Assembly: GCF_013167455.1 (NCBI RefSeq)
Contig: NZ_CP038328.1
Length of the DNA stretch: 64,000 nt
Strand: one strand, 5' to 3'
Source of the DNA: Escherichia coli O157:H7
Lineage (GTDB): Bacteria; Pseudomonadota; Gammaproteobacteria; Enterobacterales; Enterobacteriaceae
Shown: in pieces, positions 63,364-64,000 of the stretch
Numbering within the stretch: position 1 is the first letter of the stretch
How the letters are laid out: every line of letters begins with the position of its first letter
Position numbers and translations under genes: made by a program
The notes under the pieces: generated by a model
What the model saw: the letters and a program-made list of their open reading frames with translations, nothing else
What the model was told of the DNA's origin: nothing
Databases searched by the model: none

Positions 63364-64000
63364 GCTTCACCTCCGCAGAGATCAAACGCTGGATGCAAGA
63401 CATCGCAGGTGCATTTCTGCATCTGTGACAAGGTAAGGAGTTCAGATTGTGGTCGCATTTAAGTCCCCTTAAATGCGCAGAAGTCACCGGAGTTGTTCAA
63501 GCTCCGGTGACATTATTATGGAAGGTTGATACTAAAAAATCAAAAATTGAATATCATTGGCGATAGTCTAGCTTGTGATATCCACAAGCTACTTCAATGA
63601 AGCGACGAGTAACATTTTGTGTCATCCATGTTTTTTCAGTTAAGTGCCACACCCAGTTCAAAATTTGCTGATGTGTTGAACATGTACTAAGCGGGATGTT
63701 GTATTCATAAGCAACATTGATTCCGCAAAATCGGTGTCGTGTCATGACCGATTCACGTTGACCTGCGCCCTGTTGAGTGCCTGGGGATATTCTTGCTCGA
63801 TAGTTAATATCATAGTAGTTACTTTACTTTCATACCATAGCACGGTTGAAAAAGTGATTATTACTCAAAAATAAACCTCACCATCAACCATATATTTGAG
63901 AGCACTTATCGCCTGCTGGGCGGATATTACTTTCATTAAAGGATAGTGTTTAAAAACAATGCCATTCATAAAATAGATATCACAGGTTTTATTATCCGTA

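What the first reader, a model, noticed from the sequence alone, without database searches (positions are those of the whole stretch)
63454..63510. Two adjacent perfect hairpins upstream of ybcN in the nin region
GCGCATTTAAG-(5 nt)-CTTAAATGCGC is followed immediately by GTCACCGGAG-(8 nt)-CTCCGGTGAC. Neither has a U-tract on either strand, so they are not canonical intrinsic terminators. They lie where lambda-type phages have nin-region terminators or processing sites and could be protein-binding or RNA-structure elements. The region beyond (63560-64000) is AT-rich with little coding signal and runs off the window.
Basis: seen in the sequence. Interest (0 to 1): 0.3.

Follow-up and report, generated by a model that had tools for sequence, protein, structure and literature searches.

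The report
Structured RNA leader of prophage nin operon
The two hairpins are real and are the first half of a conserved four-hairpin RNA leader, with a tiny upstream reading frame, that probably controls how ribosomes enter the recombination-to-Q gene chain of many lambda-like prophages; the type of mechanism is familiar, but this element has not been described as an RNA.

Summary
Both hairpins exist, with small corrections: A is 63454-63477 (10 bp, 4-nt loop) and B is 63483-63511 (10 bp, 9-nt loop). The window holds 7 such hairpins against about 0.5 expected by chance. They belong to a ~150-nt leader on the minus (sense) strand of a DLP12-like O157:H7 prophage. Its order is: sigma-70-like promoter, hairpin B, hairpin A, the 32-codon ORF ylcH, hairpin C, hairpin D, ybcN. 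Two sequence sets, including 26 loci from at least 10 enterobacterial genera, show 97% pairing and compensatory changes in 22/38 and 30/38 pairs. G.U wobbles outnumber A.C mismatches 140:21, which points to sense-strand RNA rather than a DNA operator. Hairpin A buries the ylcH Shine-Dalgarno (invariant GGGA loop) and AUG. Hairpin D buries the ybcN Shine-Dalgarno and start codon. The ylcH stop overlaps the ybcN start, and overlaps continue through to Q. Hairpin B sits at the predicted transcript start, keeps the loop YYUGARCAN, and marks an RNA 3' end in K-12 Term-seq. It lacks a conserved U-tract. Lambda has canonical tR2 at this position. There is no Rfam family and no resemblance to put RNA. 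This is a new member of a known kind, and the role of hairpin B is unresolved.

The parts
63515..63543 (-). Sigma-70-like promoter: -35 TTGATT (63543-63538), 17-bp spacer, -10 CATAAT (63520-63515). The spacer contains ATCAA (63530-63526), which forms an inverted repeat with the TTGAT of the -35.
   Evidence: It is the only promoter-like site in 63200-64000. The same site is annotated as a putative -35/-10 in phage 82 record X92588. All 50 distinct leaders score >=8/12, with a 17-bp spacer in 47 and 31 different spacer sequences. Activity is not confirmed: Cappable-seq in K-12 lists no TSS at the predicted position.
63483..63511 (-). Hairpin B: 5' arm 63511-63502, loop CUUGAACAA 63501-63493, 3' arm 63492-63483. 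It begins 3 nt after the -10, so the predicted +1 falls at or inside the base of the stem.
   Evidence: folding. (8/10 and 7/10 pairs with changes on both sides). (G.U 49 vs A.C 12). (42 distinct sequences, loop YYUGARCAN). It equals the 'possible regulator-binding site' of phage 82.
63478..63482 (-). Spacer UUCUG between the hairpins. Positions 63478 and 63477 are equivalent to the K-12 Term-seq 3' ends at 572349 and 572350.
   Evidence: (Adams et al. 2021, PMC7815308, supplementary files 1 and 3), mapped onto the window through alignments A1/A2.
63454..63477 (-). Hairpin A: 5' arm 63477-63468, GNRA-type loop GGGA 63467-63464 (the core of the ylcH Shine-Dalgarno, AAGGGGA), 3' arm 63463-63454, which contains the ylcH AUG (63458-63456).
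   Evidence: (8/10 and 10/10 pairs with changes on both sides). (14 stem versions, loop GGGA in 74/75). Annotated as IR4 in phi80; the RBS is annotated in phage 82.
63360..63458 (-). ylcH-type upstream ORF (32 codons). Its UGA stop overlaps the ybcN GUG start (GUGA).
   Evidence: Annotated as a hypothetical protein in RefSeq, as orf33 in phage 82, and as a 33-codon ORF in the same position in K-12 (it matches ylcH at -19 from the Term-seq 3' end). The frame is open in 49/50 distinct leaders, gives 39 different peptides, and has variable sites spread 18/18/17 over codon positions.
63406..63425 (-). Hairpin C inside ylcH: CAG-A-UGCA GAAA UGCA-C-CUG (GNRA loop).
   Evidence: Klebsiella phages have CCG-A-UGGC GAAA GCCA-C-CGG. 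3/7 pairs show changes on both sides. RNAalifold predicts it independently and extends it by three outer pairs.
63362..63389 (-). Hairpin D: 11 bp with loop UGCG, enclosing the ybcN Shine-Dalgarno GGAGG (63374-63370) and most of the GUG start (63363-63361).
   Evidence: -11.6 to -19.4 kcal/mol in all lineages; the phi80/HK225/CobraSix lineage builds a different-sequence hairpin over the same Shine-Dalgarno. (10/11 pairs with changes on both sides). (G.U 87 vs A.C 9).
61273..63363 (-). Downstream chain ybcN-ninE-ybcO-rusA-ylcG-Q. Every junction is a stop/start overlap of 1-8 nt.

Best explanation
The two hairpins are RNA stem-loops in the 5' leader of the mRNA that runs, on the window's minus strand, into ylcH-ybcN(ninB/orf)-ninE-ybcO-rusA-ylcG-Q. 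They are the first two of four conserved hairpins. SHOWN: the four-hairpin structure, the strand it acts on, its conservation, and the positions of the translation signals within the stems. INFERRED: (1) Hairpin A acts as a translational gate. Its GGGA loop is the ylcH Shine-Dalgarno and its 3' arm holds the ylcH AUG, so a -12 to -16 kcal/mol stem restricts initiation on ylcH. (2) ylcH is a coupling uORF whose translation matters rather than its peptide. A ribosome reading ylcH melts hairpins C and D, and D otherwise hides the ybcN Shine-Dalgarno and start. That ribosome terminates on a UGA overlapping the ybcN GUG and can restart there. Because every later junction down to Q also overlaps, hairpin A would be the entry gate to a seven-cistron coupled chain. 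(3) Hairpin B is the promoter-proximal element. It starts 3 nt after a conserved sigma-70-like -10, so promoter-derived RNA begins flush with a 5-7 bp version of the stem, while read-through RNA from upstream forms the full stem. It acts as a stable end-defining hairpin: a barrier or weak stop that leaves RNA 3' ends 5-6 nt downstream in K-12, and probably a 5' protective cap on promoter-derived mRNA. Its invariant loop core UGARC implies sequence-specific recognition by an unidentified partner. The element occupies the position of lambda's tR2 but is not homologous to it.
For: Context and annotation. Alignment-free folding: all 27 hairpin B and 4 hairpin A variants fold alike. Covariation, set 1 (50 distinct leaders): 97.0% paired vs 27-51% when slid, 22/38 pairs changed on both sides, 0/500 shuffles. 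Covariation, set 2 (26 loci from at least 10 genera, retrieved only through a hairpin C anchor with its stem positions free): 97.1% paired, 30/38 pairs, covariation score 0.457 vs 0.146, 0/500 shuffles. RNAalifold recovers all four hairpins unaided, with 25/35 pairs compensatory. Stepwise C-G > U.G > U-A series in hairpin B. Strand: G.U 140 vs A.C 21. ylcH: open in 49/50 leaders, start always in the hairpin A 3' arm, 39 peptides, codon-position variability 18/18/17. Stop/start overlaps from ylcH to Q. Hairpin D over the ybcN Shine-Dalgarno and start in every lineage, including a non-homologous replacement hairpin. Promoter footprint. K-12 Term-seq 3' ends at ...GGUGACUUCUG| and ...UUCUGC| in two parts of the table. 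Lambda has a canonical terminator at the same position and no match to the model.
Against: No experiment shows that ylcH is translated or that ybcN depends on it; I found no data. Cappable-seq in K-12 lists no TSS at the predicted +1, only a weak one (score 2.9) that maps inside the hairpin B 3' arm if the 777-bp coordinate offset I recall is right. The DLP12 operon is reported to need an inserted promoter for adequate rusA expression (Curtis et al. 2014, citing earlier work). The conserved hairpin B loop is unexplained: no partner was found. The outer hairpin B pairs, which would lie upstream of the predicted +1, still covary, so the full stem matters in RNA coming from upstream, and a 5'-cap role alone is not enough. 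The CM-made alignments lean towards the structure, and cell counts include shared ancestry. An alternative long hairpin (AUGCAGAAA/UUUCUGCAU) competes with hairpin C in E. coli-type leaders.
Confidence: 0.6

Rival explanations
1. Hairpin B is the functional equivalent of lambda tR2: a weak, U-poor intrinsic terminator or attenuator that stops unmodified RNA polymerase before the nin genes. Hairpin A would then be a second stop or a back-up.
For: Same position as the canonical lambda terminator. K-12 Term-seq 3' ends lie 5-6 nt after the stem. The E. coli-type tail begins UUCU. The full-length stem, including the part upstream of the predicted +1, covaries, which fits a role on read-through RNA.
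Against: The sense-strand tail has only 3 U in 8 (UUCUGCGC) and is not U-rich in other genera (AGGCGCG, CCCCUGC, CCGCUGC, AACUUUAC). The simple scan does not call it on the sense strand. The HK639 record, which annotates many terminators, marks none here. The Term-seq read counts (about 1600-1900) sit at the low end of the counts seen in the excerpts of that table read here, and the end could come from exonuclease trimming. Terminator loops are not normally conserved, and this one is. Hairpin A holds a Shine-Dalgarno and AUG, which a terminator does not explain.
Confidence: 0.25
2. uORF-controlled attenuation. The real stop signal is the hairpin C region plus the U-run inside ylcH. A ribosome translating ylcH, admitted by hairpin A, prevents that hairpin from forming and lets polymerase continue, as in pyrBI-type attenuation (comparison from my own knowledge).
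For: HK639 has a terminator-like site inside ylcH (UGCAG..CUGCG + AUUUUCUG; 1 found vs 0.1 expected). RNAalifold extends hairpin C so that the U-run abuts the stem. Most lineages have GAUUUUYUG after hairpin C. The ORF is conserved as a frame but not as a peptide.
Against: The stem is weak and interrupted (-6.7 to -10.7 kcal/mol). The U-run is broken in this window (GAUGUCUUG) and in K-12 (AAUUCUUUG). The only ylcH entry in the Term-seq table of 5'-UTR and ORF-internal ends is the -19 site, so no ylcH-internal 3' end is listed there. The U-run can instead pair with AUGCAGAAA in an alternative hairpin.
Confidence: 0.15
3. Hairpin B is a DNA operator: a palindrome at the transcription start bound by a dimeric repressor. 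This is the 'possible regulator-binding site' annotated for phage 82.
For: The palindrome overlaps the predicted +1. The DLP12 operon is poorly expressed. There is a second inverted repeat, TTGAT-N8-ATCAA, in the promoter.
Against: The arm sequences are not conserved but covary, with 42 distinct versions. Changes are strand-asymmetric: G.U 49 vs A.C 12 in hairpin B, which a DNA duplex site cannot explain. The conserved part is the centre (the loop), not the half-sites. The same element occurs in phages with different immunity regions (82, phi80, HK639, HK225).
Confidence: 0.05
4. The pair is a processive antitermination signal: a put-like RNA (HK022/HK639) or a nut/boxB-like site that modifies polymerase leaving the nin promoter so that it reaches Q.
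For: Two stem-loops lie directly downstream of a promoter. The hairpin B loop U-GAACA-A could form a GNR(N)A pentaloop closed by U-A, and CCUGAANAA resembles lambda boxB (from my own knowledge).
Against: putRNA is about 70-73 nt with long, bulged stems and a triplex. Model R1 finds nothing in HK022, which carries putL and putR. HK639 annotates its putL-like RNA 8 kb away. There is no boxA. The pentaloop would need a 2-nt bulge and its closing A varies (A/C/U). The same loop occurs in phages with different antitermination systems.
Confidence: 0.04
5. The palindromes are DNA-level features with no RNA role: recombination sites for the adjacent ybcK serine-recombinase-family gene, a mosaic-module junction, or a plus-strand terminator for antisense transcription.
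For: ybcK lies 390 nt away. Homology with most prophages ends at about 63545. The plus-strand scan calls hairpin B terminator-like.
Against: The hairpins occur in phages that show no ybcK in the flanks examined. The homology break lies upstream of the promoter, not at the hairpins. On the plus strand the many G.U pairs become A.C mismatches. No plus-strand promoter-like site is found nearby.
Confidence: 0.03

Closest known systems
Lambda tR2 (terminator between ren and ninB)
   Same: Same position: directly upstream of the NinB/Orf-family gene that opens the nin region. An RNA 3' end maps just after hairpin B in K-12.
   Different: Lambda has one hairpin (AGGCCUGC/GCAGGCCU) followed by UUUUUAUUU, with no uORF and no promoter-like motif. 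Model R1 does not match lambda. The element here has no conserved U-tract, has four hairpins, and carries translation signals in its stems.
Phage 82 orf33 upstream region (GenBank X92588; my recollection is that this is the Mahdi, Sharples, Mandal and Lloyd 1996 rusA paper) and phi80 'IR4' (JX871397)
   Same: These are the same element. The phage 82 record marks a putative -35/-10, a 29-nt 'possible regulator-binding site' (= hairpin B), an RBS and orf33. The phi80 record marks hairpin A as inverted repeat IR4.
   Different: Those records treat them as a DNA palindrome and an unexplained repeat. Neither proposes an RNA leader, and hairpins C and D, the covariation and the sequestered translation signals are not annotated. 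I could not read either paper.
RBS-sequestering hairpins with translational coupling, such as the 'chain of interlinked genes' of lambda ninR and the long-range coupling in RNA coliphages (from my own knowledge)
   Same: The Shine-Dalgarno and start codon lie inside stems (hairpins A and D). The upstream stop overlaps the downstream start (GUGA). Overlaps continue through seven cistrons.
   Different: Here the first link is a dedicated 31-33-codon uORF with an unconstrained peptide, and it is itself gated by a conserved GNRA-capped hairpin. Coupling has not been tested experimentally.
5'-terminal stabilising stem-loops of E. coli mRNAs, such as the ompA 5' UTR (from my own knowledge)
   Same: Hairpin B would sit flush with the 5' end of RNA started from the conserved promoter. 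The -10-to-loop distance is a constant 11-15 nt.
   Different: The TSS is not mapped. The stem extends upstream of the predicted +1 and still covaries. The loop sequence is conserved, which a purely steric 5' cap does not require.
HK022/HK639 put antiterminator RNA
   Same: Two stem-loops in nascent RNA close to a promoter in a lambdoid phage.
   Different: Size, bulges and triplex differ. There is no model match in HK022. HK639's own put-like RNA lies elsewhere.

Membership tests
Intrinsic (Rho-independent) terminator | Stable G+C-rich stem-loop in the transcript | tested here: met
   Hairpin B is 10 bp at -18.3 kcal/mol and hairpin A is 10 bp at -13.3 kcal/mol.
Intrinsic (Rho-independent) terminator | U-rich tract immediately 3' of the stem on the transcribed strand | tested here: not met
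   The sense-strand tail is UUCUGCGC (3 U in 8) and the scan does not call it. Tails in other genera are not U-rich. After hairpin A the tail is ACCACAAU.
Intrinsic (Rho-independent) terminator | RNA 3' ends a few nt after the stem in vivo | tested here: inconclusive
   K-12 Term-seq 3' ends lie 5 and 6 nt after hairpin B, with low counts of 1585 and 1859. They could equally result from exonuclease trimming. The O157 copy itself has not been assayed.
Lambda tR2 | Sequence or structure homology to the lambda ren-ninB terminator | tested here: not met
   There is no R1 match in lambda 40200-41200, and the sequences are unrelated. Only the position is shared.
put antiterminator RNA (HK022 type) | About 70-nt RNA of two long stem-loops with bulges and a stem-I triplex; similarity to putL/putR | tested here: not met
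   Described. R1 finds nothing in HK022 (9.9 bits, E 0.41, at another site). HK639 annotates its putL-like RNA at 34187-34312, not at the leader.
put antiterminator RNA (HK022 type) | Binds the RNA polymerase beta' zinc-binding domain and suppresses downstream terminators | not testable with these tools
   This needs reporter or biochemical assays.
nut site (boxA + boxB) | boxA motif (CGCUCUUUA-like, from my own knowledge) upstream of a boxB hairpin with a 5-bp stem closed on a GNRA-like pentaloop | tested here: not met
   No boxA-like sequence lies between the -10 and hairpin A. A U-GAACA-A pentaloop would need a 2-nt bulge, and its closing base varies.
RBS-sequestering hairpin / translationally coupled uORF | Shine-Dalgarno and start codon lie within a conserved, covarying stem-loop | tested here: met
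   Hairpin A has loop GGGA in 74/75 rows with AUG or GUG always in the 3' arm. Hairpin D covers GGAGG and the start in all lineages. Covariation is shown.
RBS-sequestering hairpin / translationally coupled uORF | The upstream ORF ends at or over the downstream start; the frame is conserved but not the peptide | tested here: met
   A GUGA or AUGA overlap is present in all but HK639, where the stop lies two codons further on. The frame is open in 49/50 leaders, with 39 peptides and 18/18/17 variable sites by codon position.
RBS-sequestering hairpin / translationally coupled uORF | Downstream translation depends on upstream translation | not testable with these tools
   This needs fusions, ribosome profiling or toeprinting. 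No ylcH data were found.
5'-terminal stabiliser hairpin | The hairpin begins within a few nt of the mapped transcript 5' end | tested here: inconclusive
   The promoter geometry predicts it. But no Cappable-seq TSS lies at the predicted site in K-12, only a weak one inside the 3' arm, and SMRT-Cappable-seq has none.
DNA operator palindrome | Conserved half-site bases with dyad symmetry, indifferent to strand | tested here: not met
   The arms vary (42 versions) while pairing is kept. G.U vs A.C is 49:12 in hairpin B.
Any Rfam family | Match at or above the gathering score | tested here: not met
   The best match is engA RNA at 14.9 bits against a gathering score of 46, E 3.2.

The most novel reading that the evidence does not exclude
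The leader is a dedicated regulatory switch rather than a passive structured 5' UTR. The invariant hairpin B loop (YYUGARCAN, which contains a YUNR-type motif) would be the docking site for an unidentified trans-acting factor, either a phage or host protein or an RNA. That factor would decide whether polymerase and ribosomes enter the ylcH > ninB > ... > Q chain. This would give 82/phi80/DLP12-type phages a checkpoint on Q expression, and so on lysis timing, that replaces lambda's tR2/N control.
Probability: 0.15. Interest if true: 0.65.

Novelty: new member of a known kind. Interest (0 to 1): 0.4.

Why it matters
The nin region feeds into Q, the switch for late genes (and for Shiga toxin in some relatives), so whatever limits transcription or translation into this chain helps set how leaky or how fast lytic development is. 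Lambda's answer, the tR2-tR4 terminators read through by N, is textbook. This analysis shows that a large group of lambdoid phages and prophages across at least 10 enterobacterial genera carries a different, well-conserved solution at the same spot: a promoter-proximal structured leader with a coupling uORF. It is a ready candidate for a new cis-regulatory RNA family, since none exists in Rfam. It also reinterprets a GenBank 'possible regulator-binding site' annotation as RNA. And it offers a concrete, testable explanation for the poor expression of rusA and ybcN from DLP12 in K-12.

Tried and rejected
- Rfam scan of 63200-64000 on both strands at E <= 10: only a chance-level engA hit.
- The repeat finder with max_distance 12 missed both hairpins, because the distance is evidently measured between arm starts. 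I replaced it with my own count.
- MAFFT alignments mis-registered the different stem types, so I used alignment-free folding and a covariance model.
- put-like RNA: rejected.
- boxB/nut: rejected on anatomy and distribution.
- DNA operator: rejected on strand-asymmetric wobble.
- ybcK recombination site or module junction: rejected, because the hairpins occur without ybcK and the homology break lies upstream of the promoter.
- Plus-strand terminator: disfavoured.
- Kissing-loop partner: a search for hairpin loops containing GUUCA in HK639, HK022 and the window found only weak 5-6 bp stems at chance-like frequency, plus the antisense strand of hairpin B itself.
- Known O157/EPEC/AIEC prophage sRNAs (EcOnc and the anti-sRNAs, Pas, svsR): none is described at the nin region in those papers.
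- TSS evidence: Cappable-seq and SMRT-Cappable-seq supplements give no TSS at the predicted +1.
- Not held in the library: Thomason 2015, the phi80 genome paper and Melamed 2020.
- Small-protein evidence for ylcH: none found.
- Pfam on the 63-aa ORF 63557-63745 and on the YlcH peptide: nothing.
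Full report
OBSERVATION. The sequence at 63440-63530 contains two perfect inverted repeats. Hairpin A is CGCATTTAAG-TCCC-CTTAAATGCG at 63454-63477, with a 10-bp stem and a 4-nt loop. Hairpin B is GTCACCGGAG-TTGTTCAAG-CTCCGGTGAC at 63483-63511, with a 10-bp stem and a 9-nt loop. Five nucleotides separate them. My own count finds 7 distinct perfect hairpins (stem >=10, loop 3-10) in the 64-kb window, against about 0.5 expected from Markov simulations and analytically, so two of them lying 5 nt apart is not chance. Taken alone, B folds at -18.3 kcal/mol (z -4.6) and A at -13.3 kcal/mol (z -5.0).

CONTEXT. The window is identical to E. coli O157:H7 chromosomes. RefSeq annotation shows a DLP12-like defective prophage beside icd. 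On the minus strand it has O', P, ren, emrE and a frameshifted ybcK recombinase gene (stop at about 63865). A 406-nt gap follows, then a 32-codon 'hypothetical protein' (63458-63360), then ybcN, ninE, a DUF1364 gene (ybcO), rusA, ylcG and Q. K-12 DLP12 has ybcL and ybcM between ybcK and a 33-codon ORF in the same position (searches identify it as ylcH). YbcN gives a sub-threshold NinB match (22.5 vs 23.8 bits) and is treated in the literature as an Orf/NinB-family protein (PMC4118853).

PRIOR ANNOTATION. BLAST against phage records found the same stretch in phage 82, phi80, HK639, HK225, Enterobacter phages and, more distantly, Klebsiella phages. The phage 82 record X92588 annotates a putative -35, a putative -10, a 29-nt 'possible regulator-binding site' (= hairpin B), an RBS and orf33. 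The phi80 record marks hairpin A as inverted repeat IR4. Homology with most E. coli prophages runs from ybcN through both hairpins and stops at about 63545, just upstream of a promoter-like motif.

THE HAIRPINS ARE RNA STRUCTURES ON THE SENSE STRAND. A four-way alignment already showed rewritten but complementary stems and conserved loops. I then collected 80 loci encoding YbcN relatives plus seven phage loci, which gave 50 distinct leaders. Without any alignment, all 27 distinct hairpin B segments and all 4 hairpin A versions fold to the same hairpin. Hairpin B shows a stepwise series: C-G (phage 82), U.G (HK639) and U-A (CobraSix). The Klebsiella phages revealed two more hairpins. Hairpin C lies inside the small ORF: CAG-A-UGCA GAAA UGCA-C-CUG in E. 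coli types against CCG-A-UGGC GAAA GCCA-C-CGG in Klebsiella types. Hairpin D lies over the ybcN ribosome-binding site. I built a covariance model of the four hairpins. It matched every leader and did not match lambda. On the resulting alignment, 97.0% of cells pair (27-51% when the 3' partners are slid), 22 of 38 pairs change on both sides, and no shuffle out of 500 reaches any measure. Hairpins B and A each have 8/10 pairs with double-sided changes.

To avoid selecting sequences through YbcN, I scanned one genome per species with a hairpin C anchor whose stem positions were left free. That returned 26 loci from Citrobacter, Enterobacter, Siccibacter, Leclercia, Lelliottia, Raoultella, Trabulsiella, Superficieibacter, Huaxiibacter and Escherichia. 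All 26 match the model. Pairing is 97.1%, 30/38 pairs change on both sides, and the covariation score is 0.457 against 0.146 in shuffles (0/500). Hairpin A covaries at 10/10 pairs, B at 7/10 and D at 10/11. RNAalifold, left to predict freely, returns the same four hairpins with 25/35 compensatory pairs. Over both sets there are 42 distinct hairpin B and 14 distinct hairpin A sequences. The strand is settled by wobble asymmetry: pairs that are G.U on the minus-strand RNA number 140, while pairs that would be G.U on the other strand number 21 (B 49:12, D 87:9). A duplex-DNA site or a plus-strand RNA cannot produce that bias. These alignments are fitted to the model and the sequences are related, so cell counts overstate independent events. 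The alignment-free folds and the free RNAalifold prediction guard against that.

ANATOMY OF THE LEADER (sense orientation, window coordinates).
- Promoter-like TTGATT-17-CATAAT, 63543-63515. It is the only such site in 63200-64000 and in the equivalent HK639 region.
- Hairpin B, 63511-63483, loop CUUGAACAA.
- Spacer UUCUG.
- Hairpin A, 63477-63454, loop GGGA.
- ylcH, 63458-63360.
- Hairpin C, 63425-63406, loop GAAA.
- Hairpin D, 63389-63362, loop UGCG.
- ybcN GUG, 63363.
The promoter motif is present in all 50 leaders at >=8/12, with a 17-bp spacer in 47 and 31 different spacer sequences. The Klebsiella (TTGCTT-17-GATAAT) and BHUENT6 (TTCGCA-18-TACAAT) lineages keep the geometry with other hexamers. 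The -10 lies a constant 11-15 nt before the hairpin B loop, so the predicted +1 falls at or inside the base of the stem.

HAIRPIN A AND THE uORF. The hairpin A loop is GGGA in 74 of 75 rows. It forms the core of the Shine-Dalgarno (AAGGGGA) 6 nt before the ylcH AUG, and that AUG always sits in the 3' arm (GUG in one lineage). The ylcH frame is open in 49/50 distinct leaders; the exception has a 1-nt deletion. Yet it encodes 39 different peptides, its variable sites are spread evenly over codon positions (18/18/17), and the compensatory changes in hairpin C are non-synonymous. So the frame, start and stop are maintained, but the product is not. The stop overlaps the ybcN start (GUGA or AUGA; two codons further on in HK639). 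Hairpin D (-11.6 to -19.4 kcal/mol) encloses the ybcN GGAGG and start codon in every lineage, and the phi80/HK225/CobraSix lineage achieves the same with an unrelated sequence. All later junctions (ybcN/ninE/ybcO/rusA/ylcG/Q) are 1-8-nt overlaps. The inference is that hairpin A limits initiation on ylcH, and that ribosomes which do read ylcH open hairpins C and D and hand over to ybcN. This makes hairpin A the entry gate to a coupled chain that ends in Q. That step is inferred from anatomy and from the established behaviour of sequestered ribosome-binding sites and overlapping cistrons. No experiment on ylcH was found.

HAIRPIN B. Lambda has a canonical terminator (AGGCCUGC...GCAGGCCU + UUUUUAUUU) at the same place, 14 nt before the ninB Shine-Dalgarno; from my own knowledge this is tR2. 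In K-12, Term-seq (Adams et al. 2021, PMC7815308) lists 3' ends at 572349 and 572350 (+), classed 'orphan', at -19 from ylcH, in the context ...CTCCGGTGACTTCTG|CGC. That is 5-6 nt past hairpin B, in two parts of the table, with low counts of 1585 and 1859. I checked the -50/+10 layout of the sequence column on the argU CCA end in the same table. So an RNA end does map there. But the sense-strand tail has only 3 U in 8, is not U-rich in other genera, and is not called by the scan. The HK639 record, annotated with many terminators, marks none here. Hairpin B is therefore not a canonical terminator. The K-12 ends could reflect weak termination or exonuclease stalling at a stable stem. Its loop core is constant (CCUGAACAA 45, CCUGAACAC 9, CUUGAACAA 6, UCUGGACAA, CCUGAGCAA, AGUGAACGA and others) across unrelated stems, which suggests sequence-specific recognition. 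I found no partner. Stem length varies from 5 to 11 bp and extends upstream towards the -10 while the -10-to-loop distance stays fixed. The outer pairs would lie upstream of the predicted +1 and still covary, so the full stem also matters in RNA arriving from upstream. Promoter activity is unconfirmed. Cappable-seq in K-12 lists no TSS at the predicted site, only a weak one (score 2.9) that falls in the hairpin B 3' arm if the 777-bp offset between U00096.2 and U00096.3 that I recall is right. SMRT-Cappable-seq lists none. The DLP12 operon is reported to need an inserted promoter for adequate rusA expression. Very short products ending at hairpin B would escape such libraries, so this does not exclude the promoter.

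ALTERNATIVES.
- put-like RNA is rejected. putRNA is about 70-73 nt with bulged stems and a triplex (PMC9378689), the model finds nothing in HK022, and HK639's putL-like RNA is annotated 8 kb away.
- A nut/boxB reading fails. There is no boxA, the pentaloop needs a bulge, and the same loop occurs in phages with different antitermination systems.
- The DNA-operator reading of the phage 82 record is disfavoured by the covarying arms and the wobble asymmetry.
- A ybcK recombination site is excluded because the hairpins occur in phages with no ybcK in the flanks examined.
- A uORF-dependent attenuator built from hairpin C plus the following U-run remains possible for phage 82 and HK639 types. But the stem is weak, the U-run is broken in this window and in K-12, and it can pair instead in an alternative hairpin.
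- No published O157/EPEC/AIEC prophage sRNA that I checked is described at the nin region.
- Rfam has no family for it.

VERDICT. What is actually there is larger: a conserved, covarying four-hairpin leader with a coupling uORF, preceded by a conserved promoter-like motif, and widespread in lambdoid prophages of Enterobacteriaceae. The mechanism type is familiar (sequestered ribosome-binding sites and translational coupling). This element, however, has previously appeared only as unexplained palindromes in two GenBank records. The role of hairpin B and of its conserved loop is the open question.

Noticed in passing
63526-63543 (minus strand): TTGAT-N8-ATCAA inverted repeat spanning the -35 and spacer of the promoter-like site. 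It is conserved in E. coli, Enterobacter and Citrobacter-type leaders but absent from Klebsiella-type leaders, which keep only the -35/-10 hexamers. It could be a protein-binding site on the promoter; the spacing does not fit FNR (N4, from my own knowledge).
   Followed up: partly
K-12 MG1655 U00096.2 571565 (+), equivalent to about window 63485 (minus strand): Cappable-seq (PMC4782308) lists a weak TSS (score 2.858) that maps inside the 3' arm of hairpin B, 7 nt upstream of the Term-seq 3' ends. I could see no plausible -10 for it, and the mapping relies on a 777-bp coordinate offset recalled from memory.
   Followed up: partly
63390-63425 (minus strand); HK639 L120 42355-42395: In most E. 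coli-type leaders AUGCAGAAA can pair with the downstream UUUCUGCAU (-13.4 kcal/mol), competing with hairpin C. The U-run also gives a terminator-like call inside ylcH in HK639. In this O157 copy the run is broken (GAUGUCUUG) and hairpin C wins. This may be a structural switch or attenuator.
   Followed up: partly
63546-63864: A 320-nt AT-rich stretch between the ybcK stop and the leader promoter replaces the ybcL-ybcM genes of K-12 DLP12. About 306 genomes cover 80% or more of the 63300-64000 query that spans it. It contains a 63-codon ORF (63745-63554, minus strand) with no Pfam match.
   Followed up: partly
window 18603-18629, 23118-23143, 28056-28091, 32416-32439, 59700-59725: These are the five other perfect hairpins with stems of 10 bp or more. 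18603 is TTTTGCCGCC...GGCGGCAAAA, which looks like a bidirectional terminator. 59700 lies in the short gap between the convergent bor and rzpD genes (its last base is the rzpD stop-codon end). 28056 has a 14-bp stem. None was examined further.
   Followed up: no
L001 6566-8088, 8333-8665 (beyond the window's right edge): The prophage carries a frameshifted ybcK serine-recombinase-family gene and the emrE multidrug efflux gene between the replication genes and the nin leader, as in DLP12.
   Followed up: no
L100 (Escherichia sp. ESNIH1) 1290-1452; L094 (Citrobacter werkmanii) 7579-7717: These are degenerate or rearranged copies of the leader. ESNIH1 keeps a short hairpin B-like element (GGAG UCUGAACAA CUCC) followed by an unrelated 10-bp hairpin in place of hairpin A. 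C. werkmanii has lost the loop and 3' arm of hairpin A.
   Followed up: no
L090/L120 (HK639) ninB start, L120 42421: In HK639 the ylcH frame does not stop on the ninB start codon but two codons later (GCG UGG CUG UAA), and the hairpin D loop is UUCG instead of UGCG. Both loops fit the UNCG pattern.
   Followed up: no
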